Notes: generated by a model not told the origin, from the sequence alone. A DNA stretch of 64,000 nucleotides from Magnetococcales bacterium (GCA_015228815.1 JADGCV010000006.1:1723-65722); one strand, 5' to 3'. Shown: positions 61-31,281, counted from the first letter of the stretch. Numbers and translations are program-made.

Positions 61-1368
61 TCACTTCACGAACGATACATCCAGAAGATGTACCGCGCAG
101 GAAATGCACGGATCATAGGCCCGCAGGAGCATTTCCATGTTTAATGTCAGTTCTTTTTCCGACATGAGGGGCAACATTCGCGGCACGAAGGCTTTCATGT
201 CCTGTTCGATGTTGTTGACATTCTGGCTGGTGGGGATGATCGCGTTGGCATCGCAACACCGGCCATCCCGGTCGAAGGTGTATTCGTGGAAAAGAATGCC
301 CCGGGGAACCTCGACGGCGCCGGCGCCCTGCCCCTCCCGCGGTTGATGATCGATCGGTTCCTCGCGCAGGCCGTTTTCCAGAAGGGTGGTCATCATCGCG
401 AGGCTGTCGTGGGCGCAGTGGATGATCTCGACCACCTGGGCGCAATTGTTCATGTAGGGATTGAAGCAGGGGACACGGAGACCCAGATCATGGGCGACTT
501 GCCGCGCTTCCGGTCCGAGTTGTGCAAAATTGTTGTTGACCCGCGCCAGGGCGCCGACGGCGTAGGAATCGCGGTGCCAGCGGGACCAGCGGCTGGTCGA
601 ATGGGGGACGGTGAATTCGTTGGTCACCTGGCGGTAGTCGGCGACCGGGACCGTGGCGCGGGTATCGGAACTGTAGATTTCGCCATCGTACAGGGCATAT
701 TCGTCGGGATGCTTGAGCGAAACGAATTCGGTTTCCCGTTCGAAGGGGGGTATGTTCAACGTTTTGACGATGGCAACGGTTTCGTGAAGATCGGGAAGGG
801 CGTCCTGGAGCCGTTGCCGGAGCTGGGCGATGGCTTCCTGGTCGGGAAGCCTGCGCCATCCCTTGAGGGTGTTCGCCATGGGATGAAGGGTTCGCCCTCC
901 CAGGACGGCGGTATAGTCGTTGGCGAGCTTTTTCAGGCGCAGGGCCCGTTTGACGACCTCGGGGTGGGTCTTGACCAGAGGGAGAACGCTGGGGGCGCCG
1001 ACGAAATCGGGAATCGCCAGAAAGTAGACGTGCAGGATATGGCTTTGCAGAAACTGGGATTGGTTGAGCATCTTGCGCAGCAGGACGGTCTGTGGCGAAA
1101 CCTCGATCCCCTGGGACGCCTCGACCGCCTTGGTGGCGGCCAGTTGGTGGCCGACACAGCAGATGCCGCAAATCCGTCCCACGATCCAGGGGATTTCATC
1201 GGGCCGCATGCCGCGGGTGAAACTTTCGAAAAAGCGGTTGGCCTCGACGATGGACAGTTTGACCTCTTCCACCACCCCTTCGCGGACGTTGATGCGAATG
1301 CTGCCGTGTCCTTCGACACGGGTGACGTGGTGAATGTCGATATTGCAGTCGAGGGTGGCGAGGGTCAT
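61..1368 (-). CDS. hyhL: [NiFe]-hydrogenase large (alpha) subunit, cytosolic group 3b (sulfhydrogenase / NAD(P)-coupled type)
   Basis: ORF 61..1383(-). It has the N-terminal Ni-binding motif RICGICCVGH and the C-terminal DPCISCAVH followed by a short tail, as in protease-processed large subunits. The tracked start at 1383 is TTG; the ATG at 1368 overlaps the upstream stop (ATGA), so 1368 is preferred. Confidence 0.9.
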   Translation of the reverse strand: MTLATLDCNIDIHHVTRVEGHGSIRINVREGVVEEVKLSIVEANRFFESFTRGMRPDEIPWIVGRICGICCVGHQLAATKAVEASQGIEVSPQTVLLRKMLNQSQFLQSHILHVYFLAIPDFVGAPSVLPLVKTHPEVVKRALRLKKLANDYTAVLGGRTLHPMANTLKGWRRLPDQEAIAQLRQRLQDALPDLHETVAIVKTLNIPPFERETEFVSLKHPDEYALYDGEIYSSDTRATVPVADYRQVTNEFTVPHSTSRWSRWHRDSYAVGALARVNNNFAQLGPEARQVAHDLGLRVPCFNPYMNNCAQVVEIIHCAHDSLAMMTTLLENGLREEPIDHQPREGQGAGAVEVPRGILFHEYTFDRDGRCCDANAIIPTSQNVNNIEQDMKAFVPRMLPLMSEKELTLNMEMLLRAYDPCISCAVHLLDVSFVK

Positions 1369-2147
1369 CGTGATTTCTCCCAAAATGGCGTCTGGGTGCC
1401 ACCGAAAAGGTGGTATCGGTGTTGGATGTCGGTGTCGGAGAGCCCTTTTTCTCGAAGCAGGGCGCGATGGGCTTCAAGGTTGGCATGCGGCAGAAGACCG
1501 CGGCATCCGTCGCAACGATAGCCCTGGGTAATGCACAGGGCATGGCATCCGCCCCAGGTGATCTGCCCCATGCAGGTGTCGCCGCGATCGAAAACACATT
1601 CGTTTTCGTTCATCTTGCATTCGACGCAGACGGCGTTGGCGGGAACGTGGGGGATCGTCCCCTGAAGGAGCGATTGGACAAGTGCCAAAAATTCATCCGC
1701 CACCATCGGACAGCCGCGCAGTTGAAAATCGACCGTGACGATTTCTCCGACCGGACGCACCCGGGTATGGGACCACAGGGGCCAGAATTCCGGATCGGTC
1801 TGAACGCGGTTGCGGTCCGTTTCGCCGTAGACGCGGCGATAGTTTTCCGCCGGAGCGATCCGATTGGCGCGGGCCTGGACATTGCCGTTGCAGGCGCAGG
1901 CCCCCATGGCGACCAGAAAAGTGCTTCTGGCACGGATGTCTTGCAGGCGCAGAAGATCCTGTTCGCGGTTGATGCTCCCTTCGATGAAGGCGATGTCGTA
2001 GCGCGGGGCGGTTTCCGAAAGCGCTTCGCGGAATTCGACGAGTTCGACCTGGGTCAGAAGGTCCAGAAGAATTTCCTCGCAGTTGAGGAGGGCGAGTTGG
2101 CACCCTTCGCAGCTGGCAAAATCGAAAAAGGCGACTTTCGGTTTCAT
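1365..2147 (-). CDS. hyhS: [NiFe]-hydrogenase small (delta) subunit, group 3b
   Basis: This is the in-frame part of ORF 1365..2645(-), starting at MKPKVAFFDFASCEGCQLALLN (ATG confirmed at 2147). It has Cys-rich FeS ligand patterns. The Arg/Pro-rich N-terminal extension of the tracked ORF looks non-coding. The start overlaps the stop of the gamma gene. Confidence 0.85.
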   Translation of the reverse strand: MKPKVAFFDFASCEGCQLALLNCEEILLDLLTQVELVEFREALSETAPRYDIAFIEGSINREQDLLRLQDIRARSTFLVAMGACACNGNVQARANRIAPAENYRRVYGETDRNRVQTDPEFWPLWSHTRVRPVGEIVTVDFQLRGCPMVADEFLALVQSLLQGTIPHVPANAVCVECKMNENECVFDRGDTCMGQITWGGCHALCITQGYRCDGCRGLLPHANLEAHRALLREKGLSDTDIQHRYHLFGGTQTPFWEKSR

Positions 2148-3010
2148 TGCAGGGCCTCCTGAAGGGTGCCGATGCGGTCGAAGCGGAAGACCGGACCTTC
2201 CTGACAGCAGCAGACCCGATTGATCTGGCAATGACCGCAACGACCGACGCCGCATTTCATGCGCCGTTCCAGATCGACGTAGATGCGGTGGAGGGGCAGA
2301 CCGCGGGCGACGAGTTCCATGATGACAAACTTGTACATGACCGGAGGGCCGCACAAAGCGACGATGGTGCGTTGTGGATCGAGGGGCAAGGTGGCAATGG
2401 GGGCGGTGACGAGGCCTACCTGACCATTCCAGGGAAGGTTGGCGGTTTGATCGACAAGGCGGATGACCGATACAGGGCGTGCGGATCCGGAGGCGGCCCA
2501 GGCTTCCAGTTCCTCGCGATAGAGTTCGTCGGCAGGGGTGCGGCAGCCGCTGATGATGGTGATGGAACCGTAATGGTCGGGTTGGGCGATCAGGGGCAGG
2601 ATCAGGGAACGCAGCGGAACCAGGCCAAGACCGCCGACAATGCACAGGACATCCTGGCCGCGAAAGGTTTCAAGATCGAAGCCGGAGCCGAATGGACCGC
2701 GAATGCCGACCTGATCCCCCGGTTTGAGCCGGTGCAGGACCCGGGTGAGGCGGCCTGTCTCGCGGATGACCATTTCGAGGAAGTTGTCGTCGCCTGGGCC
2801 GGAGGAAATGGAAATGGGCGCCTCGCCGATTCCCAGGCGGGAGAGCATGACAAACTGTCCGGGTCGATGACCCAGAGGTTTGGGCAGTTGGACCTTGAAA
2901 TAGTTTTCCCGCGCCGTCATCCGACGGATTTCGAGGATTCTGGCCATCCTGGGGATATGGGGTTCCCAGTCGTGATCCTGGAGGGGGCGATCCGGCGATA
3001 CCGTGTTCAT
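2144..3010 (-). CDS. hyhG: Hydrogenase gamma subunit (FAD/NAD(P)-binding oxidoreductase with C-terminal 2Fe-2S)
   Basis: MNTVSPDRPL start (ATG confirmed at 3010, ATGA overlap with the beta gene stop). RPGQFVML flavin-binding-type strand, GGLGLVP nucleotide-binding loop, and C-terminal CGVGRCGHCQ cluster motif. Confidence 0.85.
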   Translation of the reverse strand: MNTVSPDRPLQDHDWEPHIPRMARILEIRRMTARENYFKVQLPKPLGHRPGQFVMLSRLGIGEAPISISSGPGDDNFLEMVIRETGRLTRVLHRLKPGDQVGIRGPFGSGFDLETFRGQDVLCIVGGLGLVPLRSLILPLIAQPDHYGSITIISGCRTPADELYREELEAWAASGSARPVSVIRLVDQTANLPWNGQVGLVTAPIATLPLDPQRTIVALCGPPVMYKFVIMELVARGLPLHRIYVDLERRMKCGVGRCGHCQINRVCCCQEGPVFRFDRIGTLQEALQ

Positions 3011-4059
3011 GAGCGGGTCTCCTCCGGTTGGGCAAGATCCAGAATGATGGAGAAGATGTCGATGTTGGCGGTACACTGGCGACCGCAGCGACCGCAGCCG
3101 ACACAAAAAGAATGGTCCCCAAACCGCCGGGGCAGGTAATCAAACTTTCGTTCGACCCGATGGCGCTGGCGGCCTGCCGGAAGGGGGCGAAAATTGTGGC
3201 CTCCGGCGACTTCGGCAAATCGGGGGAGCATGCAGGCATCCCAGGTTCGAACACGTTGACCGTATTGTGGATTTGTCAGGCCGGATTCATCACGGGTATC
3301 GAAGCAGTAGCAGGTGGGGCAGACCAGGTTGCAACTGCCGCAGGAAAAACAGCGTTGCACATGGCGTTCCCATATGGGGGATGACCATTGGGCGGCGATG
3401 GTGGCGGCAAGGTGTTCCATCGGTCGAGGAAATTGCCGTCCAAAGGGTTTGGGACGCGCCGCTTCGGCCTGTATCCTGTGCGGTCGGGCATCGGGACAGG
3501 GGTGAAAAGATTCGCCATCGATCAGGGACGCTCCCGCCTCGGACTGGACCTCCACCAGAAAAGAATCGCCGATGGGCGTGAGGAAAAGATCGGCGTTGCC
3601 ACGCCAATTCAGAGAACCGACCGCCTCGCAGAAACACCGTTCATCGCAGGGGTGCGGACAGGCAATGGCGATGAGGGTGGTTGGGTCTCTTCGGGCACGG
3701 TAGTGGGGGTCTTCCGGGGGATGACGATGAACCCGATCCATCAGGTCGATCGCCTTGAGATCGCAGGGGCGAACGCCGGCCAGGATTCTCGAAGTCGGGT
3801 CCACGACCGGTTCGATGACGGGTTCACCCGCATCGTCGGGATGGAAACGGAAAAGGGTTTCCACGGCGGGCAACAGTTTTTTTCCGGGGGGGACGATGGT
3901 GGGGTGGTAGTCTTCGAATGACAGTTCCGAGCGTTCGTGAACCGCCAGGAAACGCCAGCCCGAACGTCCGGCCCGTTGTGGAAAAAACACCGGTTTCCTT
4001 CGCGCCAGCCCCCGGAGCCAATGGGGTGCGGCCTCTTTGTGGAGCCAAAAAGCGTCCAT
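3007..4059 (-). CDS. hyhB: Hydrogenase beta subunit (4Fe-4S, AsrA-like)
   Basis: MDAFWLHKE start (ATG confirmed at 4059). Ferredoxin-type motifs CFSCGSCNLVCPTCYC and CVGCGRCGRQC. It is the first gene of the beta-gamma-delta-alpha order typical of group 3b operons. Confidence 0.8.
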   Translation of the reverse strand: MDAFWLHKEAAPHWLRGLARRKPVFFPQRAGRSGWRFLAVHERSELSFEDYHPTIVPPGKKLLPAVETLFRFHPDDAGEPVIEPVVDPTSRILAGVRPCDLKAIDLMDRVHRHPPEDPHYRARRDPTTLIAIACPHPCDERCFCEAVGSLNWRGNADLFLTPIGDSFLVEVQSEAGASLIDGESFHPCPDARPHRIQAEAARPKPFGRQFPRPMEHLAATIAAQWSSPIWERHVQRCFSCGSCNLVCPTCYCFDTRDESGLTNPQYGQRVRTWDACMLPRFAEVAGGHNFRPLPAGRQRHRVERKFDYLPRRFGDHSFCVGCGRCGRQCTANIDIFSIILDLAQPEETRS

Positions 4060-4242
4060 CGCGCCACCTTTCCGATCGGTGTGTGGGAAGCGCCGGAAGT
4101 CGATGGCGCCACAACCGCGCAATCGACGATTCCCGAAGGCTGTCCCTCCTTGTTTACCGTTATCAGCATATCATTGCATGTGGCGTAGATTAAGAAATTT
4201 CTCCTTTCTCATGAATTTTACCGTGAAAAATCTCGCCCTGAC

Positions 4243-4367
4243 GTAACCGTTCAGACCCCGTCTTCTCAAGCCAAAAGCGGAAATCCAGGATTTGCCGAGC
4301 CTCCCTGGATCCCCGCTTTCGCTTAGGATGACGTTTGTCAAAAAAAAGGGGGGGGGTAAACGGTTAC
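4243..4367. repeat. Nested inverted-repeat element in a divergent intergenic region
   Basis: Outer 9-bp inverted repeat GTAACCGTT (4243-4251) / AACGGTTAC (4359-4367). It encloses a two-tier hairpin: AAAGCGG 4274-4280 pairs with CCGCTTT 4313-4319, and ATCCAGG 4283-4289 pairs with CCTGGAT 4304-4310. It also encloses an A8G9 homopolymer junction (4340-4356). Confidence 0.5.
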
Positions 4368-4396
4368 ACTGATCCGGGCATTTGATGCCGCAGGGC

Positions 4397-4426
4397 TTGA
4401 CTGATGACATCTTGGTAGATTATTAT
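4397..4426 (+). promoter_or_regulatory. Putative sigma70-type promoter for the 4495-8302 operon
   Basis: TTGACT at 4397-4402, an 18-nt spacer, then TATTAT at 4421-4426. It lies about 70 bp upstream of the ATG at 4495. The -10 element is the first 6 nt of the palindrome's left arm. Confidence 0.35.
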
Positions 4427-4464
4427 GCGCCATGCATGCCTTTAGGCATGCATGGCGCATAATA
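4421..4464. repeat. 44-bp perfect palindrome (20-bp arms, 4-nt centre), candidate operator or 5' leader hairpin
   Basis: TATTATGCGCCATGCATGCC (4421-4440), TTTA, GGCATGCATGGCGCATAATA (4445-4464). The arms are exact reverse complements, checked base by base. Confidence 0.9.
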
Positions 4465-4494
4465 TCCTGATCAAAATGGAAATGGCACGGACCG

Positions 4495-5298
4495 ATGGAA
4501 TCCTCCCATTCTGTTGAACAAACGGCAGACCCGTTCATGCCCCTGGTAACCGTGGAACACAATCAGACGCTGTTCCACCTTGTCAATTCAAATGTGTGCT
4601 GGAACTCACATGCAAGTGAACATGCAACGGCCAGAAAAATCGAATACGAATGCGGGGAACATGGCGTAACGATACCAGGCTGCCGGTACTTCTACGCCGG
4701 ACATGGCCTTGATCGATATGGTGAAGTCGTCTTTGTCTATGAACCGCCGGATGAAATAAACCTATGTGGGTCGGCCAATCCTTTTGATACCGGAGCATTG
4801 TTCCTTGGCAGTATGGAACCTTTTGCCAAAAAGACCACCAAAAAAGATCGCTGCCAGTTCATTGATATGACCAAAATCGACATCTCCTCTTGGCGAAAAG
4901 AATTTGGCGTATTCATAAATCGGTGCTATGATGGCGATGTATTGTCTTATCTGAATGGGGCACGACCGAAAGAACCAGACGCATGGGGCAATCCCAATCT
5001 GCCTTCAAAAAATGCGGCCAACACTGAATTATGCGCATGGGTCTGGGAAATACGCATCGAAGAAAAACATCCCATCGAACAGGGACTGTTTGCCTGGAGC
5101 TGTCCCGTCGATCAACACCAATTCATCACACGCACGATCAACGACATGAAAGGAAACGTCAAACCACCAAAACGTGCTAAAAATCTTGGAACTTTCTCCA
5201 AAAAGTGGATCAGACCCGGTATCACGGAAACGCCCTGCGAAGCGATTCAGCAACGAATCATCCGTTTATTTTCGGAACGAAAGAAACCCTCTTCATGA
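4495..5298 (+). CDS. Hypothetical protein (267 aa), first gene of a three-gene operon
   Basis: This is the only long ORF in the interval, and it has markedly lower GC than its flanks. Its stop overlaps the next start (ATGA at 5295-5298). I recognise no family motif. It contains an RIEEKH (Rx4H) string of uncertain meaning. Confidence 0.6.
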   Translation: MESSHSVEQTADPFMPLVTVEHNQTLFHLVNSNVCWNSHASEHATARKIEYECGEHGVTIPGCRYFYAGHGLDRYGEVVFVYEPPDEINLCGSANPFDTGALFLGSMEPFAKKTTKKDRCQFIDMTKIDISSWRKEFGVFINRCYDGDVLSYLNGARPKEPDAWGNPNLPSKNAANTELCAWVWEIRIEEKHPIEQGLFAWSCPVDQHQFITRTINDMKGNVKPPKRAKNLGTFSKKWIRPGITETPCEAIQQRIIRLFSERKKPSS

Positions 5299-6260
5299 AC
5301 CCGTCGGACACATTTCCCGCCGTTGGCATTTTCAGTTCCGTAGAAACGCCCTGCGCACTCAAACGTGTGCTCCTTCGGTTATCGGACGATCCACTGAGGT
5401 TCGGCAGTCCTGCACCATCCACCGGTCGCGAACAGCGCTACGATCAGGATGAATTCACCATGATGCTCCAGGAAGGTCGGATCACGGCATTGGAAAATGA
5501 ATGTCCTGTACAGCGTCACGACATGGCTTTCTTCGCCCGGCCCTCGTTCCTGCTCACTTATGAAAAGGTTTGCGAAGAACCGTTCCCCTGGTCATCTTTC
5601 GATCCCATCGTGGTCAAGACACCGGTTGATCCCGAAGAGGAAAAACAAAATTTTCCAATAATCCTTCAAGATACAACGGAACGCTTGACAAAAGAGAACA
5701 AAGTTTTGGCAATACTGGGTTCACCGGAAACGCTGATTGCGCTTTTTGAAAGAGCCACGCAAAATATTTTGCATCACGGGCAACGAACCGGTTGTCGGTA
5801 TTTAAACCATGCCCAGGATTCCCAGGCATGGCTGGATGCTTTGGACCGCATGAAAGAGATTGGATGGCTGGCGACTTTTTGCAGCAACAGCAATGATCCC
5901 GACTTGTTGATCCAATCTTATCTCCTTGTCTGTCTTTCCTTCTACGAACGAGGCGCCTTGGATCTTATTGAAGACCTGTACGAAACCGGTCTTCATCCTT
6001 TCGCCCCGGAAATTTCCTATGATGAATTTTTTGATCGTGTCCGTCGGTTGAGAAAAAATTTGCATGCCATGCATGAAGATGGCATCTGTCGGTGCAAAGA
6101 GACCAGAACTGGTAGTAATATTATTATCTTTCCATCATCTTCACGGCCATCCTACGGAGATTTGCCTGCACACACCTCTGACCATCTATCTCGAACGAAT
6201 GGAACAATCCACAACCCAGGCAGATCAAAATCGGTCCGCATACATGAGCATCGTCCATGA
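5295..6260 (+). CDS. Hypothetical protein (about 321 aa), second gene of the operon
   Basis: This is the in-frame part of ORF 5205..6260, starting at MNPSDTFPAV (ATG 5295, overlapping the upstream stop). Its stop overlaps the next start (ATGA at 6257-6260). The central region looks helical; no recognisable motif. Confidence 0.55.
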   Translation: MNPSDTFPAVGIFSSVETPCALKRVLLRLSDDPLRFGSPAPSTGREQRYDQDEFTMMLQEGRITALENECPVQRHDMAFFARPSFLLTYEKVCEEPFPWSSFDPIVVKTPVDPEEEKQNFPIILQDTTERLTKENKVLAILGSPETLIALFERATQNILHHGQRTGCRYLNHAQDSQAWLDALDRMKEIGWLATFCSNSNDPDLLIQSYLLVCLSFYERGALDLIEDLYETGLHPFAPEISYDEFFDRVRRLRKNLHAMHEDGICRCKETRTGSNIIIFPSSSRPSYGDLPAHTSDHLSRTNGTIHNPGRSKSVRIHEHRP

Positions 6261-8302
6261 AATTCTACAGTTTTTTTTCTTTCAAGGGCGGCGTTGGCAG
6301 AACAGCCTTGATGGTCAACATTGGGGCTTACTGGGCCAATCGTGGCGAAACGGTGTTGATGATCGACATGGACCTGTCGGCACCGGGGTTATCCTATTCG
6401 CCACTTTTGGGTGATTATCTTCATGCAGAGGGTCGAGACAACGGTTTCAGTGATCTTTTGGCGGTCTATTATCGGGGGCGGAACAAAAATCCCAATGAAC
6501 TTCATTTCATGCCTCCTCACCTGTTAATGCAGGAAATTTATCCGCCGGACAAGAATGGAATGCCCTTGAAGGGTAAACTCTGGGAAAAGGGTGGTCGTCT
6601 TCTGACCATCAGGGCCGGAACCGCATATGTTCCGTATCCTGCGACCAATCCGGAACAACAAGAAAATCCGCGGAGACCAACCCATCAGAATCTCTCTGAC
6701 CACGCAGACAAGACAAAATCCCTGACCGTCATCAAGGACATTCCTCCCGAAGACGGTCGGGGCGAAGAAGAGACTTTGGAAGAATTTTCATTGCGTGCCC
6801 TGGCGTTTGCCATCAAGGATGACCTGAACTCATGGAATGGAAACGGTCGTTCCATCGATCGGGTGCTGATCGATTGCCGTACCGGTTTGCCTGAACTTCT
6901 GGAATTGAGTCTCGGTTATCTTTCCTCGCGCATGGTCATGGTCGTCGGACTCAATGAACAAAACCGGGAAGGGATGCGTCAATTATTGACCGCCCTGCAA
7001 AAACGTATTCCCCTCGGAGAATTTCCGGGCGCCTTGCGGGTGGTCTTCTCGCCAGTGCCACGGACCGATGACGAGGACAACGTGATTGCGGCATTGGAGG
7101 AAAGCAGAACGCTGTTAAACTCCCTGATGCGCATCGACCCGCGCAACGATGAACGGGAAAGTCCACCCGAAGATTCTCTGTTGCACTATACCCCCCGGTT
7201 GGCGACCGGGGATGCCCCCCTGGTCACGACCCACCCGCACCTTCTTTATGTCAGCGAAGTACGCGAAGTTGCCAAATGGTTGGAAGGTACCTTCCGCACC
7301 GCCAGCGTCGTTGAAGGATTCAAAGACAGGTTGGAGGAAGCGGGAGCGTTTCTGAAGCCCGGGGGTTTGACCGGTGCGTCTGGTTCCCCGACAAACCGAC
7401 GTGCCAACCCGGCGGTCGGTCTTCCCCGCTGGTTTTGGCCCCTGCCCCGGGAAGTACAGGAACATACCGAACGCCGTACCAAAAAATGTAACGAATTGAT
7501 TACATTCAGTCCTGACATCAACGTGGACAAGGATGTGTTCCTGACCAAACTGTCCTGGTCGGTATCCCTTGATACCGTCGAAAAACAACGAGTTATTAAT
7601 ACGGCTAAATTGTTCTCCCAGGAACAGGTCGATAGACTGTTGGAACTTTACGATTGGGAACGCCAAAAGTTCGCCGCTCTGGCAGAAGATCAATGGGAAG
7701 TATTTTTGGCCACCTGCTGGTCCCGTCAAAAAGACTGGGCCGAAATTGTGGATGGCATCGCAGGAGTCAAACGGTTTCTTACCGCACCCCTCACGGGAGA
7801 ACACCTGCATCCTTCGTGGGAAATGTGGCCCGGATACTGGACCAACATTGCCGACGCACTGTCAAAGCAGGATCCTGTTCAAGCAGAGCGCGCTTATCAA
7901 CGTGCCATCGCTGCTGACCCAAACCATGCAAACAATCTTGGTAATTTCGCAAGTTTCTTGTTGACGAGGAAACGGCGGGAAGAAGGGCTGGAACGGTTGC
8001 GAACCGCGTTTGATCTGTCACCGCAGGAACATCAACTCCGGTTGGAGCTGTGCTACTATGCCATCGTCCATGCCCCGGATCGCTATCCGGAGGCGCTTTC
8101 GACCTTGAAACGATTGCTTCTTGACGGCGTTCGTTCACCCGGATGGGATTTATCGGGACATGTGGCCATCGCCCGCGAACAAAACGATCCCCGGACGGAA
8201 CTGCTGGCACAATTAGCTGCGGTCATCAGCGACGGCGCGGACCTGGCCTCACTGAATCATATTCCGCTTTGGCACGAAATCCACCCACGACCCAGCCCAT
8301 AA
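6257..8302 (+). CDS. ParA/MinD-superfamily ATPase with variant P-loop (KGGVGR) fused to C-terminal TPR repeats (681 aa)
   Basis: N-terminus FSFKGGVGRTALMVN is a deviant Walker A with Arg in place of the canonical GK[ST] Lys. DMDLSAPG (A'-like) and VLIDCRTG (Walker B-like) follow. The C-terminus has TPR-like strings AERAYQRAIAADPNHANNLGNFASFLL and EGLERLRTAFDLSP. Confidence 0.8.
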   Translation: MKFYSFFSFKGGVGRTALMVNIGAYWANRGETVLMIDMDLSAPGLSYSPLLGDYLHAEGRDNGFSDLLAVYYRGRNKNPNELHFMPPHLLMQEIYPPDKNGMPLKGKLWEKGGRLLTIRAGTAYVPYPATNPEQQENPRRPTHQNLSDHADKTKSLTVIKDIPPEDGRGEEETLEEFSLRALAFAIKDDLNSWNGNGRSIDRVLIDCRTGLPELLELSLGYLSSRMVMVVGLNEQNREGMRQLLTALQKRIPLGEFPGALRVVFSPVPRTDDEDNVIAALEESRTLLNSLMRIDPRNDERESPPEDSLLHYTPRLATGDAPLVTTHPHLLYVSEVREVAKWLEGTFRTASVVEGFKDRLEEAGAFLKPGGLTGASGSPTNRRANPAVGLPRWFWPLPREVQEHTERRTKKCNELITFSPDINVDKDVFLTKLSWSVSLDTVEKQRVINTAKLFSQEQVDRLLELYDWERQKFAALAEDQWEVFLATCWSRQKDWAEIVDGIAGVKRFLTAPLTGEHLHPSWEMWPGYWTNIADALSKQDPVQAERAYQRAIAADPNHANNLGNFASFLLTRKRREEGLERLRTAFDLSPQEHQLRLELCYYAIVHAPDRYPEALSTLKRLLLDGVRSPGWDLSGHVAIAREQNDPRTELLAQLAAVISDGADLASLNHIPLWHEIHPRPSP

Positions 8303-8384
8303 CCGGAGAAATCTGGCAAAAAACCCTGCCCAATCATCACGGCCACAGCATGATGCCCTTCGGGCAAAAAAGTCAAAGGCAAAG

Positions 8385-8410
8385 TCAAAAACATTGGGGG
8401 CTTCGCCCCC
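8385..8410 (-). terminator. Putative rho-independent terminator for the pilus operon
   Basis: GGGGGC-TTC-GCCCCC hairpin at 8396-8410. On the minus strand it is followed by AATGTTTTT. It lies downstream of the pilE stop (8504). Confidence 0.35.
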
Positions 8411-8421
8411 AAACCCCCACT

Positions 8422-8442
8422 GGGAAGGGGAAACCCCTTCCC
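8422..8442. repeat. Perfect 9-bp-stem hairpin between convergent operons
   Basis: GGGAAGGGG-AAA-CCCCTTCCC at 8422-8442. There is no adjacent T-run on either strand. Confidence 0.6.
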
Positions 8443-8503
8443 AGACCCATCCTGATGACTATAAAGACCACAAACACCACGACCGAAAAATCCAGCCCGC
8501 TCA

Positions 8504-8962
8504 TCACGGCCACTGGTTCTCACCCGCATCGGTATAACCGCCATCATTGTCGGCATCGTGAAAACGCGCCCCGGTCGAAGCCAGGGCCAGTTTGCCATCG
8601 TTTGCCTGCCCCAGAAGAGGGGTGGCCTCGACGACAAAACAGGTGGCGACCGGACAGGCAGTGCCCAGAACGGTCGCCGCATTGGCCGCGGAAAGAATCG
8701 TCGCCGAATAATACCCCTCATCGGAGGTCTCCGGATCGGTCAATCCCAGAGACGACATGCTGCTGGTATAGGTCATGTTTTCCGTAAACCAGCGTTCCTG
8801 AAGATTGGCGACATGCAACAACAGGCCCTTGCCGTCCGAACGTCGCCCCTTGATAACCGACTCCATGTAACTGGGAACGGCCACGACGGCAAGGATCGTC
8901 ACCACCGCCAGGACCATCATCAGTTCGATCAGTGTAAAACCGCTCTTCACGTTTTGTTTCAT
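8504..8962 (-). CDS. pilE: Type IV pilin-like protein (PilE-type)
   Basis: MKQNVKSGFTLIELMMVLAVVTILAVVAVPSY is a class III (prepilin) signal plus a hydrophobic N-terminal helix. ATG confirmed at 8962. It is the last gene of the minor-pilin operon. Confidence 0.85.
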   Translation of the reverse strand: MKQNVKSGFTLIELMMVLAVVTILAVVAVPSYMESVIKGRRSDGKGLLLHVANLQERWFTENMTYTSSMSSLGLTDPETSDEGYYSATILSAANAATVLGTACPVATCFVVEATPLLGQANDGKLALASTGARFHDADNDGGYTDAGENQWP

Positions 8963-9005
8963 TGAAATAATGTCATCCTTGTTGTGACCGAACCAACAGG
9001 CCCGA

Positions 9006-12000
9006 TCAATCGAATTCGATCTCCCGCCAGGACACCCGGCCATTGGGTGGCGAAGGGAGGGTGATTTGCGTCCGGATCAACGATCCGGTGGACATCTGGG
9101 TCACGACCGTGGGATTGGATGAGCCACTGCCATAATGGATCACCGGCGTCGATGCAATACCGGTCCCCAGGCTGATCGATCCCTGGACGATTTCATGATC
9201 CACCCCGCCATCGTTCAGGGTATAGGTGCCCATCGACGCCGCCGGACAGGCGGTTCCGGTCGCATAACACAACGCATTCAAAGTGCTCGTCCCCTCGGCG
9301 GAACATGTGTCGGTCGGCGGGGTATACAGGGAAAACAGCGCCAGGCGTTCAACCTGCTTGATCTGTGACAGGCTCCGTTCACTGGGATTGCCGCCATTCA
9401 CGGTAAAACTTCTGTACCATCCGTCCTTGGTGCCGATGAGCGTTTCAAGATCGGTATAGGTCGTCACCCCGGTCAGGACACTACCGATGTCCAGTACCTC
9501 TTCGTCGGAATCGACCAGAACGCCGCTGACGTTTTGCACATTGGCCGAGGCGATCTCGCCAATGGTTTGCGGTTCCTTGAGACCGTAGAGAACCTGTTGG
9601 CCCGAAGTCGAATTGTCCGAGGTGGTCCACAAACGACCCGTTCCCGCCACAAGCCAACGGTCGCCATTGGCGTCCCGCACCGCCAGGGGACGCGCATTGA
9701 ACGGCTTGTCCGGATTGAAAAAGGAGGAGACCGACGGACTGAGCCAATCGCTGAACTCCATGCGCAACAACCGTCCCGTCTGACTCAGGTCCAACGAATC
9801 ACGGCCATCGGTACCCAAATAGACCGAGTCGGTCACAAAATCATGATTCCAATCGACCGCGACGACATTGGGAACAAAACTGTTGGCGATACCATCGCTG
9901 CCAACGGTCGAAAGATCCAGAGGACCGAATCCCGTCTTCCAGGTTTTATTCACCAGGTCATAGGCATAAAGGCGGGCACTCTGCGACGCGGTAACCCCGG
10001 CAAGCTCCGTCGGCCCCGAGCCGAAGATCAGGAGCCAATCATTGTCGGTCGGGTTGTACCAGTTGCCATCCGATCCCGGACTCCGGCGTACCGCCACAGC
10101 GGGTTGACTGACGGTAAAACCCAGGGCGGAATCGGTCAATTCAGCCATCAGTTTCGGCGGCGCCTCGGGATTGGTGATGTCCATCACCACATAGGCGGAT
10201 CGGGTCTCGGGAGTGCCATCATTGTCGATGTCCAACGCCCCACCCCCCAGACGCATCCCCGCCACCAACACCGTGCCCCATCCTCCGGGATGATCCTCAT
10301 CCTCGGTAAAAATCCGGGCGTCGAAAACAACCGGGGAATCATCCATATAATAGACATGCTGGTAGCTCATCTGGGTGAGCCATTTCAGGTGCGGCAAAAG
10401 ATTGAACGGGGCATAGGCCCAGAGTTCATCGCCAAGGGAATGCTGTTGCAGGCTGCCCTTGGACGTTTCGAAGGTTTTGGTCGATTCGTTCCAGAATCCG
10501 GCGTTGAACGCATGCAGCATCCCATCGTTGGCCCCGACATAGACCACCTGGCGGCGCGCGGCATAATAGGTATGAAAAGCCCGGTAACTGGCATCGTTAT
10601 AAAGGGTATCATAGCGAACCCCATACGTTTCCCCCGGCGCCGCCACCGCCACCGGGGTCGAATGAATGATGTCCCCCAGACGCCATACCTTCTCGCCACT
10701 GCCATCATAATTGAGGGTGCGGGTTCGATAGCCGCTGATCTCCTCCCCCCGGATAAAATTGACAATGTTGGCCGCCTCGGCGGAGGTCGATGCCTGCAAA
10801 TAATAATAATTGGCCGAATCGGCAAAGTGCGCGGCATCGAAATCGACCTGTTCACCCGTATCGACCGTGCCATTGCCATTGGCATCAAGCCAGGTGGTGA
10901 TGTAACGTCCACTGATGGCCGGTTGCGTCAGGTAATCGCGTTGCGTCGTCACAGTGCTCACCTGGGCCAGAAGATCACGGGCATCCCAAATCGGACGCAG
11001 CTGCTCGATATTGACATCCTCATAGGTCGCCGAGGTGGTATCACAATCCGCCGGGGTCGTATACCGCCTGATCTTCGTCACCTGGTCGGTCGTATCATAG
11101 GTCAGATCGATGATCGGATCGACCAGGCAATCATCCAGAACCCCGTCGGCATCACCATCCTCGCGAAAACGGCTGTTGGAATCGATGAACAGGGCATGGA
11201 GCGTCCCGCCCCACTGAATCTGCTTGCCATCGGAGTTCATCTCCGGATAATAGAGCGCCTGGTAGACACCGCCGATCCCCGAATAACTGTTGGCAACCAC
11301 CGCCGCCGCCGTTCCCGAACTGACCCGTTCCATGATGTCGTAAAAGGCCTGGGTCAACCCCTCCACCAGCGCCTCGGGATCGCTCGCCAGGACATAGTTG
11401 TCCGGAGTGCCATCACCATCGGAATCCCAATCGGAAGTCTGGCCCGGTTGTGTCCCGCCTCCGGAAAAACCACCATATTTTCCCGCCAGCCACAACATGT
11501 TCATGGTACCGGTCAACGGAGTCGCATTGTATTCCTGGGTATCGACCATGAAGGTGGTGATGGTCTGGTCTCCCGTCAGGTCGGACCGAAGGTCCTGGGT
11601 GTGGGCATAATAGGCCAGGCCGGCAATGTAATAAGAGTTTTCCTTGGATGTATAAGGACAGGTGCCAAACACCTCGCCCAGGGCATTGATGGTCTTGTTG
11701 GTCGCGCTCATGTCACAACTGGTCGCGGTGCAACCGATACACTGGGAGGTTCCCGTCAACCCTTCCAGGTCGCCGACCGTGTTGGTCAGGGTCTTGACAT
11801 CGATGTCGGCGTCGGCATTGGAAGGGCTGCCATAATCGGAGGTGTCCTGCCCCAGGGAACGCAGACCAAAATAACTGCCACTGGTCTGTTTCGTCCCCGG
11901 CAACTGCTTGTCGAGCCAGGGATTGGCGTCGTTGATTCCCAATATAAAGTTTTTCTGACAGGAACTGGTGATCGGATCCTCCCAGGTCGTCAGTACCGGA

Positions 12001-13151
12001 AACCCATCCTTCTGGGCATCCGTCAGACCCGATGAATATTCACTCGTCGGTCCCCGGTTCTTGAAATAATTGATGCATTCGTAAAACAACTCGCCGATCG
12101 GATCATAGGACTTATAACCATTGGAACCAAACTTGTTCAGATAATTGATGACTCCTGAATTGCCCACGCCGCTGGCCAGGGTCACCTGGTCGGGATTGTC
12201 CACAAAAATGCCATCGGTACCGAACTCGGCATAGGGATTGATTTCCAACCCCCCTCCCGAGGCGGGACGGTAGGGACCGACATATTTCATATTGGCCCGC
12301 AACACCCCCCCATCCCGCGATTGGGAACTGTCGGTGGTATAACTCATCAGGGCAAAACGCATCCGGTAGGCATTGTCCTGGATCAATCCCTGCGGCTTGT
12401 AATAAGCACCATAATCGACGCAGTTGTCTTCCACGCTGACTCCGGTATCGCATACCTTCACCCGGACATACAGATTGGCCGCCTTCTGACTCCCCCCCCA
12501 ACTGGTCCCGAAATCCACCTGATAGCCATGATTGTAGATATAAATCTTGCTGTCAGTGTAGGGGGTGACCGTGGAGGGCGCGACGTTGCTGCTGGCGGTG
12601 ATCATCTTCACCGGATACCAGGAGTCCCCTTTGCTCAATCCCATGTTCGTCCGTTCCAGCACCGTCAGCGCGGTGGTATCGGTCTGCCGGTTGCCCCCGG
12701 TCAAGGCCCAACGAAATTCATCGATGGCGGTCATGGTCGCCCAGTTGAGAAAATTGCCGCTCCATTGACCTGAACATTGGTGGGAAGAGGCCGCAGAAGC
12801 GGGTTCGAAACGGCTGTTGACGTAGGTATAACACTTGTCGGGATCGAAATAGCCAATATACTGGCTCGAATTAGAATAACAAATCCCCACGGTGCCCCCG
12901 CCATCGGTGATCCGCCCGCTGCAACTGGCGCCATCGGGCTGGTCGTTGTAGGCCGCCCCCTGCATCGGTGTCTCGACCGAAAGGTTCAACATGACATTGG
13001 GATCGACCTGCTCCGGCATGGTCGGTGGCCAGGCGCTGTAATCGGCATTCGCGGCGCCATGAGCCTTCCCAGCCACACCAGCCAGTACGAACAACAACAT
13101 CCAGAGCAGCACCTTTCCGTTCCCGTGCTTTGAATCAATCAGTCGGTTCAT
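9006..13151 (-). CDS. pilY1: Type IV pilus tip adhesin / assembly protein PilY1 (about 1381 aa)
   Basis: It has a signal peptide (LLWMLLFVLAGVAGKAHG) and the hallmark VYVGANDGMLHAFNA block. Several DxDxDG-type Ca-binding-like loops are present (DSDGDGTPD, DIDNDGTPE, DANGNGTVD). Its position between pilX and pilE fits. The tracked start at 13169 is TTG; the ATG at 13151 is preferred. Confidence 0.85.
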   Translation of the reverse strand: MNRLIDSKHGNGKVLLWMLLFVLAGVAGKAHGAANADYSAWPPTMPEQVDPNVMLNLSVETPMQGAAYNDQPDGASCSGRITDGGGTVGICYSNSSQYIGYFDPDKCYTYVNSRFEPASAASSHQCSGQWSGNFLNWATMTAIDEFRWALTGGNRQTDTTALTVLERTNMGLSKGDSWYPVKMITASSNVAPSTVTPYTDSKIYIYNHGYQVDFGTSWGGSQKAANLYVRVKVCDTGVSVEDNCVDYGAYYKPQGLIQDNAYRMRFALMSYTTDSSQSRDGGVLRANMKYVGPYRPASGGGLEINPYAEFGTDGIFVDNPDQVTLASGVGNSGVINYLNKFGSNGYKSYDPIGELFYECINYFKNRGPTSEYSSGLTDAQKDGFPVLTTWEDPITSSCQKNFILGINDANPWLDKQLPGTKQTSGSYFGLRSLGQDTSDYGSPSNADADIDVKTLTNTVGDLEGLTGTSQCIGCTATSCDMSATNKTINALGEVFGTCPYTSKENSYYIAGLAYYAHTQDLRSDLTGDQTITTFMVDTQEYNATPLTGTMNMLWLAGKYGGFSGGGTQPGQTSDWDSDGDGTPDNYVLASDPEALVEGLTQAFYDIMERVSSGTAAAVVANSYSGIGGVYQALYYPEMNSDGKQIQWGGTLHALFIDSNSRFREDGDADGVLDDCLVDPIIDLTYDTTDQVTKIRRYTTPADCDTTSATYEDVNIEQLRPIWDARDLLAQVSTVTTQRDYLTQPAISGRYITTWLDANGNGTVDTGEQVDFDAAHFADSANYYYLQASTSAEAANIVNFIRGEEISGYRTRTLNYDGSGEKVWRLGDIIHSTPVAVAAPGETYGVRYDTLYNDASYRAFHTYYAARRQVVYVGANDGMLHAFNAGFWNESTKTFETSKGSLQQHSLGDELWAYAPFNLLPHLKWLTQMSYQHVYYMDDSPVVFDARIFTEDEDHPGGWGTVLVAGMRLGGGALDIDNDGTPETRSAYVVMDITNPEAPPKLMAELTDSALGFTVSQPAVAVRRSPGSDGNWYNPTDNDWLLIFGSGPTELAGVTASQSARLYAYDLVNKTWKTGFGPLDLSTVGSDGIANSFVPNVVAVDWNHDFVTDSVYLGTDGRDSLDLSQTGRLLRMEFSDWLSPSVSSFFNPDKPFNARPLAVRDANGDRWLVAGTGRLWTTSDNSTSGQQVLYGLKEPQTIGEIASANVQNVSGVLVDSDEEVLDIGSVLTGVTTYTDLETLIGTKDGWYRSFTVNGGNPSERSLSQIKQVERLALFSLYTPPTDTCSAEGTSTLNALCYATGTACPAASMGTYTLNDGGVDHEIVQGSISLGTGIASTPVIHYGSGSSNPTVVTQMSTGSLIRTQITLPSPPNGRVSWREIEFD

Positions 13152-13178
13152 GGATCGTCCCTCCCGCAATGCACCGGG

Positions 13179-14168: not shown

Positions 14169-14185
14169 GACATTGCCATGATCGT

Positions 14186-25572: not shown

Positions 25573-25975
25573 ACGAACTCTTCATCCTGCGTAGGGAAAA
25601 GCTGTTGCATCAACTCCCTTGAAAGCGGCTGAATTCCTCGCGGGTTTGATTTGCCCCCATGGCGTTTTCCCTGCCATCGCTGTCGATCGCCAACCGGCCA
25701 TCCCCGATTAAGACAAGCATCAGTATGCATGATCGCTTTTTCCGACGCAAACCGCCAAAACCTGCCTCACTGCCGACCATGCGGGCATTTCCCGACAAAA
25801 ATTTCCGGCCCGTTTGCCGATCACCAATTTGATCCGGTGCATTTTTTTTTCGCCAACCCTTGCCAAACCGGGTACGATGTTCTTCTTTAAGCGGGGGAAT
25901 CCCGGAGAACCACCCACCCATCCTTTTTTCGATCAACTCAATCGACCAGAAACCGACGGCGCGAGAAGCAACTCC

Positions 25976-30897: not shown

Positions 30898-31281
30898 ATG
30901 TCACGCCTATTGATTATCGATGATGATCCGGCAATCCGGGATATCGCCAACAGGATTCTGGGACGCGCGGGTCATGACCTGGAGACCGTGGCGTCCGCCG
31001 AGGAAGGTTTGGCCCGGTGCGATAAGACTCGATTCGACCTTGTGGTGACCGACCTGACGCTGCCAGGCATGAGTGGCGCATCGTTCGCGCAAATCGTTCG
31101 GCAAAGGTTTCCCTGGATGCGAATTCTTGTTTTTTCGGGTCTTCTGTCCACCCCCGAGACGGCCATTCCTTTGGACCTGGTCCCGGACACGCCGCATCTC
31201 CATCTTCTGGCAAAACCGTTCCGGCCCAGGGAATTGCTGGCAGCGGTCACGGCATTGCTTCAGCATGAACCGGAAAAATAA
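30898..31281 (+). CDS. Single-domain response regulator (CheY-like receiver, 127 aa)
   Basis: MSRLLIIDDDPAIRDI..FDLVVTDLTLPGMSG..LLAKPF shows the acidic pocket, phospho-Asp and conserved Lys positions. The ATG at 30898 is preferred over the longer tracked ORF that overlaps glgP. Confidence 0.8.
   Translation: MSRLLIIDDDPAIRDIANRILGRAGHDLETVASAEEGLARCDKTRFDLVVTDLTLPGMSGASFAQIVRQRFPWMRILVFSGLLSTPETAIPLDLVPDTPHLHLLAKPFRPRELLAAVTALLQHEPEK

What the first reader, a model, noticed from the sequence alone, without database searches (positions are those of the whole stretch)
4495..8302. Lower-GC three-gene operon of two unknown proteins plus a KGGVGR-variant ParA/MinD ATPase-TPR fusion: a candidate novel NTPase-based conflict/defence module
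Three co-directional ORFs are welded together by ATGA start/stop overlaps (5295-5298 and 6257-6260). They sit as a compositionally distinct, visibly AT-richer patch between the hydrogenase operon and the pilus operon. The third protein has a ParA/MinD fold whose P-loop reads KGGVGRT. The invariant GK[ST] lysine is replaced by Arg, in contrast to the canonical KGGVGKTT of the genuine parA at 25976 in this same window. A long insertion lies between the A' and Walker B regions, followed by ~250 aa of unassigned sequence and C-terminal TPRs. The two upstream proteins (267 and ~321 aa) match nothing I can name; the first contains an RIEEKH (Rx4H) string that could be, but need not be, HEPN-like. 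An NTPase fused to a repeat-type sensor domain, co-translated with small unknown partners in an accessory patch, is the general layout of many anti-phage systems. No known effector domain (nuclease, TIR, SIR2, protease) is recognisable, so an effector here would be new.
Basis: partly seen in the sequence, partly recalled or inferred. Interest (0 to 1): 0.72.

Follow-up and report, generated by a model that had tools for sequence, protein, structure and literature searches.

The report
ParA-like ATPase-TPR three-gene conflict-type operon
Three overlapping genes in a magnetotactic bacterium encode two uncharacterised proteins and a ParA/MinD-like ATPase with an altered ATP-binding loop and a repeat-type sensor tail; they travel together as a unit and look like an undescribed variant of bacterial NTPase-controlled conflict or defence systems, though nothing about its function has been tested.

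Summary
Three co-directional genes are joined by ATGA overlaps: A 4495-5298, B 5295-6260 and C 6257-8302. They lie in a low-GC patch (0.46-0.51 against 0.58-0.62) between a NiFe-hydrogenase operon and a minor-pilin operon of a Magnetococcales MAG.

C is not a new family. It passes NCBIfam NF047398, "KGGVGR-motif variant AAA ATPase". Its ATPase module also matches PADLOC candidate PDC-M28B. Kaur et al. 2020 reported MinD/ParA-like domains, predicted to be inactive, in conflict systems, and these look like the same domain.

A and B match nothing in Pfam, NCBIfam, PADLOC or PDB. The HEPN idea for A fails because RIEEKH is not conserved.

A-B-C recurs in 10 distinct loci, at different chromosomal sites and always with lower GC than its flanks. 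A and B diverge together and much faster than C (41/41% against 84%). Other KGGVGR-TPR ATPases carry an unrelated two-gene cassette. Distant KGGVGR domains are fused to NACHT/STAND modules, and one has a HEPN gene directly upstream. A belongs to a larger family (182 cluster representatives) that also pairs with other partners.

Best reading (about 0.5): an NTPase-gated conflict module in which C is the ATP-dependent switch and sensor and A-B is the exchangeable effector cassette. It is a new variant of a predicted kind, of moderate interest.

The parts
4397..4426 (+). Sigma-70-like promoter candidate (TTGACT, 18-nt spacer, TATTAT) for the triad
   Evidence: It matches 10 of 12 consensus positions and is the best site in 4100-9100. 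This is a consensus match only; function is not shown.
4421..4464 (.). Perfect 21+21 nt palindrome overlapping the -10 hexamer. Candidate operator or 5'-leader hairpin.
   Evidence: The arms are 100% complementary. The RNA fold has dG -42.2 kcal/mol and z -6.5. It is unique in the window and absent upstream of orthologous triads, so it is not a conserved part of the system.
4495..5298 (+). Gene A, 267 aa. Member of an uncharacterised family of standalone proteins of about 230-300 aa; predicted effector enzyme.
   Evidence: A profile search finds 182 cluster representatives at E<=1e-3. Y65, D98, G100, W133 and E185 are invariant across 67 members. There is no hit in Pfam, NCBIfam, PADLOC or PDB sequences. 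The AF2 model failed (pLDDT 36).
5295..6260 (+). Gene B, 321 aa, translationally coupled to A and C. It has an N-terminal beta-rich domain, a helical bundle and a disordered C-terminal tail. Predicted partner, adaptor or inhibitor of A.
   Evidence: It has 7 homologues, each found directly downstream of an A gene wherever the locus was read. AF2 gives pLDDT 74.5 and pTM 0.70, with residues 268-321 disordered. Foldseek finds no significant match in PDB or BFVD. There are no family hits. B diverges in step with A.
6257..8302 (+). Gene C, 681 aa: KGGVGR-variant ParA/MinD-fold ATPase, an unassigned middle region, and C-terminal TPRs.
   Evidence: NF047398 scores 92.7 bits against a cut-off of 90. 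Pfam AAA_31 and CbiA score above their gathering thresholds, and TPR_19 is just below its threshold. PADLOC PDC-M28B matches at 1e-19. There are 79 homologues.
6284..6304 (+). Deviant Walker A, KGGVGRT (residues 10-16). The signature Lys10 is kept; the canonical GK[ST] lysine is replaced by Arg15.
   Evidence: KGGVGR[TS] is present in every family member with an intact N-terminus, about 70 proteins. K10 and R15 are invariant in alignment A5.
6863..6886 (+). Walker B segment VLIDCRTG (residues 203-210)
   Evidence: I205, D206, R208 and G210 are invariant in the family.
6998..7825 (+). Middle region of C (residues about 248-523) with no assigned domain
   Evidence: It has no Pfam, NCBIfam or PDB hit. 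It is conserved at 71-75% in close orthologues.
7826..8119 (+). TPR array of C (residues about 524-621), shorter than in its orthologues
   Evidence: Supported by Pfam TPR families and PDB TPR matches. Orthologues carry a TPR block about 228 aa longer, while the C-terminal ~120 aa are retained in frame.

Best explanation
The triad is a self-contained, horizontally mobile, NTPase-gated conflict module of the defence or abortive-infection type.

Proposed roles (all inferred):
- C is the regulatory core. It is a ParA/MinD-fold ATPase whose KGGVGR P-loop keeps the signature lysine, the Walker A' aspartates and the Walker B aspartate. It probably binds ATP and forms the nucleotide-sandwich dimer, but hydrolyses slowly or not at all, so it acts as a switch rather than a motor.
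- The variable-length TPR array of C is the ligand- or partner-binding (sensor) surface.
- A and B form the exchangeable output cassette. A, with its invariant Asp98 and Glu185, is the likely enzymatic effector.
- B co-evolves with A and carries a disordered tail of the kind TPRs bind. It is the likely adaptor or inhibitor that couples A to C.

Shown here: gene order, translational coupling, conservation of the unit, motif conservation, cassette exchange, and family links.

Inferred: ATP-dependent switching, sensing by the TPRs, the effector role of A, and any anti-phage function.
For: 1. Conserved unit. A-B-C is found in 10 distinct loci, with overlapping stop and start codons in the window.
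2. Mobility. The triad sits in different neighbourhoods in related MAGs: hydrogenase and pilins here, pilMNOPQ-aroB plus an MNT/HEPN toxin-antitoxin pair, topoisomerase, a Cu-ATPase, and TPS/DUF927. Its GC is below the flanks in all 8 loci measured. Two paralogous triads occur in one MAG, JADGAR (L006 and L012).
3. Modularity.
   - Between the window and L003, the C ATPase domain is 84% identical, while A and B are each 41%.
   - Between the window and L009, the figures are 84% for C against 62% (A) and 68% (B).
   - KGGVGR-TPR homologues at about 35% identity carry either A-B (L060) or an unrelated X1-X2 pair (L047-49, L061) in the same positions.
4. TPR copy number varies between orthologues.
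5. Conflict-type relatives.
   - KGGVGR domains are fused to NACHT/NB-ARC plus pentapeptide repeats (P0086) or to STAND-like modules (P0087-89).
   - P0088 has a HEPN gene abutting it, and the pair matches PADLOC candidate PDC-M28A/B/C.
   - The window's C matches PDC-M28B at 1e-19.
6. Literature. MinD/ParA-like SIMIBI domains are among the common cell-division-related domains of vWA-MoxR/VMAP ternary conflict systems and of AP-ATPase proteins (PMC7159879).
7. The A family (182 cluster representatives, invariant D and E) also pairs, by overlapping genes, with other partner families. A is therefore the constant enzymatic element of several two- or three-gene modules.
Against: - No member of the A, B or KGGVGR-TPR families has any experimental phenotype. 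PDC-M28 is itself only a candidate system.
- Most loci are flanked by housekeeping genes rather than known defence genes.
- A is absent from the plasmid collection and from IMG/VR. C (N-terminal 348 aa) is absent from the plasmid collection at E<=1e-8.
- No known effector fold was recognised. The structure prediction for A failed, so its enzymatic nature rests only on invariant acidic residues.
- Replacing the P-loop lysine with arginine could abolish nucleotide-dependent function altogether. Kaur et al. 2020 predict inactivity for such domains.
Confidence: 0.5

Rival explanations
1. This is still a conflict system, but with the roles reversed. The KGGVGR ParA/MinD-like domain of C is itself the effector: a catalytically dead mimic that poisons the host's MinD/ParA-dependent cell division or chromosome segregation once released. 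A and B are the sensing or regulatory partners.
For: Kaur et al. 2020 classify MinD/ParA-like domains in ternary conflict systems as cell-division-related effector domains predicted to be inactive. In P0086 the KGGVGR domain occupies the N-terminal position of a NACHT protein, which I know from the general literature (not from a paper read here) to be the usual effector position. The canonical P-loop lysine is lost in every member.
Against: All other nucleotide-binding and dimerisation motifs (K10, D37, D39, D206, N233) are invariant or nearly so. That pattern argues for retained nucleotide binding rather than a decayed decoy. From C's point of view the upstream cassette is the variable part (A-B, X1-X2 or HEPN), which is the usual behaviour of effectors. 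In L050 a bona fide effector-type domain (HEPN) sits upstream of the KGGVGR protein.
Confidence: 0.15
2. The triad is a ParA/MinD-type positioning or assembly system. C patterns or assembles a cellular structure, and A and B are its cargo or adaptor proteins. This is the alternative the first reader named.
For: C has the ParA/MinD fold with the signature lysine. TPRs are common protein-cargo adaptors. In two locus types the triad lies next to type IV pilus genes: the window and L006-8.
Against: There is no conserved synteny with any cargo locus; the neighbours differ in nearly every locus. Several paralogues with different upstream cassettes occur, and GC is lower than the flanks. The canonical lysine needed for the ATPase cycle of positioning ParAs is replaced in all members. 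Relatives are fused to NACHT/STAND modules or paired with HEPN. No ParB-like gene or membrane-targeting feature was identified. The window has a separate canonical parA.
Confidence: 0.12
3. The triad is a selfish addiction module. A and B are a toxin-antitoxin-like pair that ensures its own retention. C is a chaperone-like or regulatory accessory. There is no dedicated anti-invader role.
For: A and B are a tightly coupled, co-diverging pair. The A family also occurs in two-gene modules without an ATPase. The triad has a patchy, non-syntenic distribution with low GC.
Against: At 267 and 321 aa, both proteins are large for classical type II pairs. No DNA-binding antitoxin domain was detected. 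The constant linkage to an ATPase-TPR of about 700-1000 aa is atypical for simple toxin-antitoxin pairs. The A family and the C ATPase region were not found on plasmids.
Confidence: 0.1
4. The triad is a housekeeping or niche-specific enzyme system. A is a metabolic or modifying enzyme, and its assembly or activity is assisted by B and by a TPR-ATPase chaperone.
For: A has the conservation pattern of an enzyme. Neighbours are mostly metabolic or housekeeping genes.
Against: There is no consistent metabolic neighbour. The A-B cassette is replaced by the unrelated X1-X2 cassette next to homologous ATPases. A and B diverge rapidly. The family has conflict-type links.
Confidence: 0.08

Closest known systems
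NCBIfam NF047398, 'KGGVGR-motif variant AAA ATPase' (domain model)
   Same: The N-terminal domain of C passes the curated cut-off (92.7 against 90 bits) over residues 2-247 and carries the eponymous motif. One homologue is already named this way by NCBI (P0057).
   Different: The model names only the ATPase domain. It says nothing about function, about the TPR fusion, or about the A-B partners, none of which has a model.
PADLOC candidate system PDC-M28 (A: small HEPN-like protein; B: KGGVGR-type ParA-like ATPase; C: STAND-like NTPase). It has not been validated experimentally.
   Same: The ATPase module of C matches PDC-M28B (1e-19). Both are operons in which small upstream genes precede a KGGVGR ATPase.
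   Different: The window has no M28A or M28C equivalent. A and B give no PADLOC hit, and C carries TPRs instead of a STAND-like module. The M28B match covers only part of the profile.
NTP-dependent ternary conflict systems and STAND/NLR-like sensors (Kaur, Burroughs, Iyer and Aravind 2020, PMC7159879)
   Same: The logic is the same: an NTPase fused to supersecondary-structure repeats (TPR), exchangeable effector genes, paralogue expansion, and patchy distribution. That paper explicitly lists MinD/ParA-like domains, predicted to be inactive, in such systems, including fusions to AP-ATPases. P0086 here has that architecture.
   Different: Here no STAND, MoxR, vWA or GTPase core is present. The ParA-fold domain is the only NTPase, so it would have to serve as the switch itself. 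The A, B, X1 and X2 partner families were not described there, as far as the text searched shows.
Canonical ParA/MinD/Soj positioning ATPases
   Same: The fold and most motifs are shared: the deviant Walker A with its signature lysine, the Walker A' aspartates, and Walker B.
   Different: The canonical P-loop lysine is replaced by arginine in all members. There is an extra insertion between A' and Walker B, a C-terminal extension of about 430 aa with TPRs, and no ParB or MinE partner. A genuine parA (KGGVGKT) lies elsewhere in the window.

Membership tests
NCBIfam NF047398 KGGVGR-motif variant AAA ATPase | Score at or above the curated cut-off (90 bits) for the domain model | tested here: met
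   92.7 bits, E 3.6e-26, residues 2-247 on model positions 3-189 of 190
NCBIfam NF047398 KGGVGR-motif variant AAA ATPase | KGGVGR in place of KGGVGK in the deviant Walker A | tested here: met
   KGGVGRT at residues 10-16. KGGVGR[TS] is present in all ~70 homologues with an intact N-terminus.
ParA/MinD (SIMIBI) deviant-Walker-A ATPases | Signature lysine plus canonical lysine: K-G-G-x-G-K-[ST] | tested here: not met
   The signature K10 is present, but the canonical lysine is Arg15. Fold-level membership is supported: Pfam AAA_31 scores 32.2 bits (threshold 27) and CbiA 29.0 bits (threshold 25.4).
ParA/MinD (SIMIBI) deviant-Walker-A ATPases | Walker A' aspartates and the Walker B aspartate | tested here: met
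   D37, D39 and D206 are invariant in the family alignment
ParABS / Min positioning systems | Partner gene (ParB, MinE or a cargo adaptor) and conserved synteny with a cargo locus | tested here: not met
   A and B give no hit to any Pfam or NCBIfam family, so no ParB- or MinE-family partner lies in the operon. The neighbourhoods differ between loci.
PADLOC PDC-M28 (candidate) | M28B ATPase component | tested here: met
   PDLC04559 at 1e-19, 68.9 bits, a partial match in two stretches
PADLOC PDC-M28 (candidate) | M28A (HEPN-like) and M28C (STAND-like) components | tested here: not met
   A and B give no PADLOC hit at E<=1, and C has no M28C hit. By contrast, P0088 matches M28B plus M28C, and its upstream gene matches M28A.
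HEPN (for protein A) | Conserved Rx4-6H motif and a HEPN profile match | tested here: not met
   RIEEKH aligns with RIEELL, VIHSQP, RLECHP and RLECQP in homologues. None of 67 family members hits a HEPN family in Pfam.
STAND NTPases (NACHT / NB-ARC / nSTAND) | STAND NTPase domain in the sensor protein | tested here: not met
   C has no such Pfam hit. The domain is present only in distant KGGVGR fusion proteins P0086-89.
TPR-repeat proteins | TPR profile matches | tested here: met
   Several TPR families hit residues 524-621 (TPR_19 at 4.4e-5, just under its gathering score). PDB TPR proteins match. Orthologues have long TPR arrays.
Anti-phage defence system (functional class) | Protection phenotype, or statistical enrichment in defence islands | not testable with these tools
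   Only anecdotal neighbours were seen: an MNT/HEPN toxin-antitoxin pair, a transposase and DUF927. No enrichment statistic or experiment was possible.

The most novel reading that the evidence does not exclude
A ParA/MinD-fold ATPase with a GR[ST] P-loop, fused to TPRs, serves as the nucleotide-dependent pattern-recognition switch of a defence system. It would take the place that STAND or AAA+ NTPases hold elsewhere. It would control interchangeable two-gene output cassettes (A-B or X1-X2). A would found a new effector-enzyme family built on an invariant Asp/Glu pair, and B would be its co-evolving adaptor or inhibitor.
Probability: 0.3. Interest if true: 0.75.

Novelty: new variant of a known kind. 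Interest (0 to 1): 0.5.

Why it matters
If the reading is right, three things follow.
- The ParA/MinD fold would be added to the NTPase classes that can gate bacterial immune or conflict effectors. A natural Lys-to-Arg P-loop variant would be a built-in slow switch.
- At least four protein families with no annotation would be defined as its exchangeable output modules: A (182 cluster representatives), B, X1 and X2.
- It would give a concrete, testable meaning to the MinD/ParA-like domains, predicted to be inactive, that were noted in earlier comparative work and to PADLOC's unvalidated PDC-M28.

If the reading is wrong, the A family remains a sizeable, conserved, enzyme-like family of unknown function worth a structural look.

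Tried and rejected
- HEPN in A: rejected. The Rx4H string is not conserved, and there is no profile hit.
- C as a truncated pseudogene: rejected. The shorter length is an in-frame loss of a TPR block of about 228 aa, with the C-terminus retained.
No fold search was attempted on it.
- Profile searches of A, B and all partner families against Pfam, NCBIfam, PADLOC and PDB sequences gave nothing.
- hhalign between B, the class II and class III partners, X1, X2 and C gave no significant relationship. The only bridge is L060's B, which weakly hits both the B and class II HMMs.
- Conserved upstream operator: the 21-nt palindrome is window-specific.
- tRNA genes or flanking direct repeats marking an integration site: none found.
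- Rfam: nothing.
- Plasmid and phage carriage: A is absent from PLSDB and IMG/VR. The C ATPase region (N-terminal 348 aa) is absent from PLSDB at 1e-8. Only distant KGGVGR ATPases without A or B occur on 8 IMG/VR contigs.
- Literature: no paper contains 'KGGVGR' or 'PDC-M28', or links ParA-like ATPases with anti-phage defence systems. The 'CATRA' lead from memory came to nothing.

Full report
**Observation**

The window comes from a Magnetococcales metagenome-assembled genome. The exact proteins are HQL76_03615 and HQL76_03620.

Three + strand ORFs are present as described:
- A, 4495-5298 (267 aa)
- B, 5295-6260 (321 aa from the ATG at 5295)
- C, 6257-8302 (681 aa)

ATGA stop/start overlaps lie at 5295-5298 and 6257-6260.

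The triad sits between two minus-strand operons. One is a NiFe-hydrogenase-type cluster at 61-4122. The other is a type IV minor-pilin cluster at 8504-14375, with a ComP_DUS-type pilin, PilY1 and PilX.

GC falls to 0.46-0.51 over 4250-6750, against 0.58-0.63 upstream and 0.56-0.58 downstream. GC3 is 0.48, 0.48 and 0.57 for A, B and C, against 0.64-0.76 in neighbouring genes.

C carries KGGVGRT at residues 10-16. The window's canonical parA (25814-26758) carries KGGVGKT.

**What C is**

C is not a new family.
- It passes the curated cut-off of NCBIfam NF047398, "KGGVGR-motif variant AAA ATPase" (92.7 against 90 bits).
- It passes the Pfam AAA_31 and CbiA thresholds and has C-terminal TPRs.
- Its ATPase module matches PADLOC candidate PDC-M28B at 1e-19.

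Every one of about 70 homologues with an intact N-terminus has KGGVGR[TS]. The signature lysine K10, the Walker A' residues D37 and D39, the Walker B residue D206 and the N233/Q235 region are invariant or nearly so. Selection therefore maintains a nucleotide-binding and dimerisation site in which only the canonical P-loop lysine has been swapped for arginine.

From general knowledge of ParA, MinD and SopA Lys-to-Arg mutants (my own knowledge, not tested here), such a site would be expected to bind ATP but turn it over poorly. That is the behaviour of a switch.

The window's C is shorter than its orthologues (681 against 852-1043 aa). The reason is an in-frame absence of about 228 aa of TPRs; the last ~120 aa are retained. 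It is a TPR copy-number variant, not a pseudogene.

**What A and B are**

Neither protein hits Pfam, NCBIfam or PADLOC at E<=1.

*Protein A*
- The word-indexed search found only 3 homologues of A.
- An exhaustive profile search found 182 cluster representatives at E<=1e-3. Of these, 62 are at E<=1e-10, and nearly all are standalone proteins of 160-340 aa.
- Across 67 members the invariant residues are Y65, D98, G100, W133 and E185. They lie within the motifs RYFYAG, NPFDTGG, WR..F and AWTWE[IV]R. This is an enzyme-like pattern.
- None of the 67 members hits Pfam, NCBIfam, PADLOC or PDB sequences.

*Protein B*
- B has 7 homologues.
- Its AF2 model is usable (pLDDT 74.5, pTM 0.70). It shows an N-terminal beta-rich domain, a five-helix bundle and a disordered tail of about 55 residues.
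- Foldseek found nothing significant in PDB or BFVD.
- The other fold libraries were unavailable.

**Is the triad a unit?**

Yes. A-B-C in this order occurs in the window and in these loci:
- L002/L009
- L003/4/5/10
- L006
- L007/8
- L011
- L012
- L014
- L060 (Candidatus Magnetaquicoccus inordinatus)
- L001, where A-B is followed by the contig end

The neighbourhoods differ from locus to locus:
- hydrogenase and pilins (the window)
- pilMNOPQ-aroB-cheX plus an MNT/HEPN toxin-antitoxin pair
- a topoisomerase
- a Cu-ATPase with DsbD
- a TPS giant protein with DUF927

In all 8 loci measured, the triad has lower GC than its flanks. One MAG, JADGAR, carries two divergent copies: L006 and L012.

**Modularity**

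A and B diverge together and much faster than C.

| Comparison | C ATPase | C middle | A | B |
|---|---|---|---|---|
| Window vs L003 | 84% | 75% | 41% | 41% |
| Window vs L009 | 84% | 71% | 62% | 68% |

- **Alternative cassette next to C.** KGGVGR-TPR homologues at about 35% identity are again the third gene of a three-gene operon. In L047, L048, L049 and L061 the first two genes (243-302 aa and 341-380 aa) belong to other families, called X1 and X2 here. X1 and X2 are unrelated to A and B by HMM and by hhalign. L060, at similar C divergence, has A-B.
- **Other partners of A.** The A family also pairs with other partners through overlapping genes:
  - a 267-aa family plus a KGGVGRS ATPase (L019, L022, L027/42);
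  - a partner family of about 600-730 aa with no ATPase visible (L026, L030, L034, L035, L038, L039, L041, L046).
- None of these partners has a Pfam, NCBIfam or PADLOC hit.

**Links to conflict systems**

- Distant KGGVGR domains are fused to NACHT/NB-ARC plus pentapeptide repeats (P0086) or to STAND-like NTPases (P0087-89).
- P0088 lies between uvrB and uvrA with a HEPN gene abutting its start.
- PADLOC assigns the HEPN protein to PDC-M28A (weakly, 7.7e-4). It assigns P0088 to PDC-M28B plus PDC-M28C, fused.
- Kaur et al. 2020 (PMC7159879) list a MinD/ParA-like SIMIBI domain, "predicted to be inactive", among the commonest cell-division-related effector domains of vWA-MoxR/VMAP ternary systems. 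[quoted passage not shown] That is the P0086 architecture. I infer, but did not verify, that this is the KGGVGR clade.
- Eight distant KGGVGR ATPases occur on IMG/VR contigs, without A or B.
- Neither A nor the C ATPase region was found on plasmids, and A is absent from IMG/VR.

**Mechanism proposed**

Shown here:
- a translationally coupled three-gene unit;
- a P-loop variant conserved together with the other nucleotide-site residues;
- a TPR array of variable length;
- an A-B cassette that co-diverges and is exchangeable against X1-X2;
- non-syntenic placement with low GC.

Inferred:
- C is an ATP-dependent dimerisation switch whose TPRs bind a trigger or partner.
- A is the effector enzyme, using D98 and E185.
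- B couples or restrains A, possibly through its disordered tail binding the TPRs.

I rate this at about 0.5.

Rivals:
- The ParA-like domain is itself a division-poisoning effector (0.15).
- The triad is a positioning or assembly system with A and B as cargo adaptors (0.12).
- It is a selfish toxin-antitoxin-like addiction module (0.10).
- It is a niche enzyme system (0.08).

Evidence against the defence reading:
- No phenotype exists for any member.
- PDC-M28 is itself unvalidated.
- Most flanks are housekeeping genes.
- No effector fold was recognised.

**Other checks**

- A promoter-like site (TTGACT, 18-nt spacer, TATTAT, 4397-4426) overlaps a perfect 21+21 nt palindrome at 4421-4464 (dG -42 kcal/mol, z -6.5). 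The palindrome is unique to this locus and absent upstream of orthologous triads.
- No tRNA gene, flanking direct repeat or Rfam family marks the region.

**Verdict**

The ATPase family and its conflict-system flavour are already catalogued, as predictions only. The A-B-C triad, the A family and the alternative cassettes are undescribed in every library and text I could search.

Novelty is rated as a new variant of a known kind. Interest is 0.5. This is a credible and testable candidate, but its function is unproven, its effector chemistry is unknown, and it comes from an uncultured lineage.

Noticed in passing
window 4421-4464: A perfect 21+21 nt palindrome with a 2-nt spacer overlaps the -10 hexamer of the triad's promoter-like site. 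The RNA hairpin has dG -42 kcal/mol and z -6.5. It is unique in the window and absent upstream of orthologous triads, so it is a locus-specific operator, leader hairpin or insertion scar.
   Followed up: partly
window 4340-4356: An A8G9 homopolymer run lies in the 372-bp divergent intergenic region between the hydrogenase operon and the triad. It could be a slippage-prone tract.
   Followed up: no
window 8319-8346 and 8486-8513: A 28-nt direct repeat (86% identical) lies just after the stop codon of C and across the 3' end of the minor-pilin gene (8504-9043, minus strand). A G+C-rich terminator-like hairpin at 8394-8419 lies between the copies.
   Followed up: no
window about 31200-37500: A second, deeper low-GC patch (GC 0.44-0.46 in 2-kb windows) holds a 550-aa protein, a 1315-aa protein of unknown function, and a 502-aa protein that overlaps its 3' edge. 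A 523-aa protein lies just beyond it at 38742-40313. By eye the last two look like a PLP-dependent decarboxylase and an AMP-dependent ligase. This may be a separate accessory or biosynthetic island.
   Followed up: no
window 25814-26758: A canonical ParA-type ATPase gene (KGGVGKT) lies in the same window. It is a useful internal contrast to the KGGVGR variant and matches the C-family ATPase HMM only weakly (4.5e-8).
   Followed up: partly
L047 5066-10081; L048 4960-9589; L049 5222-9049; L061 4070-8610: KGGVGR-TPR ATPases are preceded by an alternative pair of uncharacterised genes: X1 (243-302 aa) and X2 (341-380 aa, helical). X1 and X2 are unrelated to A and B and have no hit in the libraries scanned (NCBIfam, PADLOC for L047/L048) or in the precomputed Pfam annotation.
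   Followed up: partly
L026, L030, L034, L035, L038, L039, L041, L046: A-family genes overlap a conserved partner family of about 600-730 aa with a C-terminal 'VNNTRREVL' motif and no visible ATPase gene. This is a two-gene variant of the module.
   Followed up: partly
L050 6625-9631: In a Clostridiales MAG, a HEPN gene abuts a KGGVGR-STAND fusion protein. The pair (PADLOC PDC-M28A, B and C) is inserted between uvrB and uvrA.
   Followed up: partly
L006 6473-7054; L007 and L008 6339-7059: A nucleotidyltransferase/HEPN-type (MNT/HEPN-like) toxin-antitoxin pair lies immediately upstream of the triad in two Magnetococcales locus types.
   Followed up: no
L060 9202-11261: In Candidatus Magnetaquicoccus inordinatus the A-B-C triad is followed by a 96-aa gene and a 590-aa DUF927 protein. 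By my recollection DUF927 is typical of mobile-element primase/helicase-like genes. A giant TPS-domain protein lies upstream.
   Followed up: no
L015/L028/L029, L016, L033: Distant A-family members in Propionibacteriaceae, Bacteroidota and unassigned metagenome contigs are followed by unrelated proteins of 316-346 aa. In L015 a TPR protein is encoded convergently. These associations are unresolved.
   Followed up: partly
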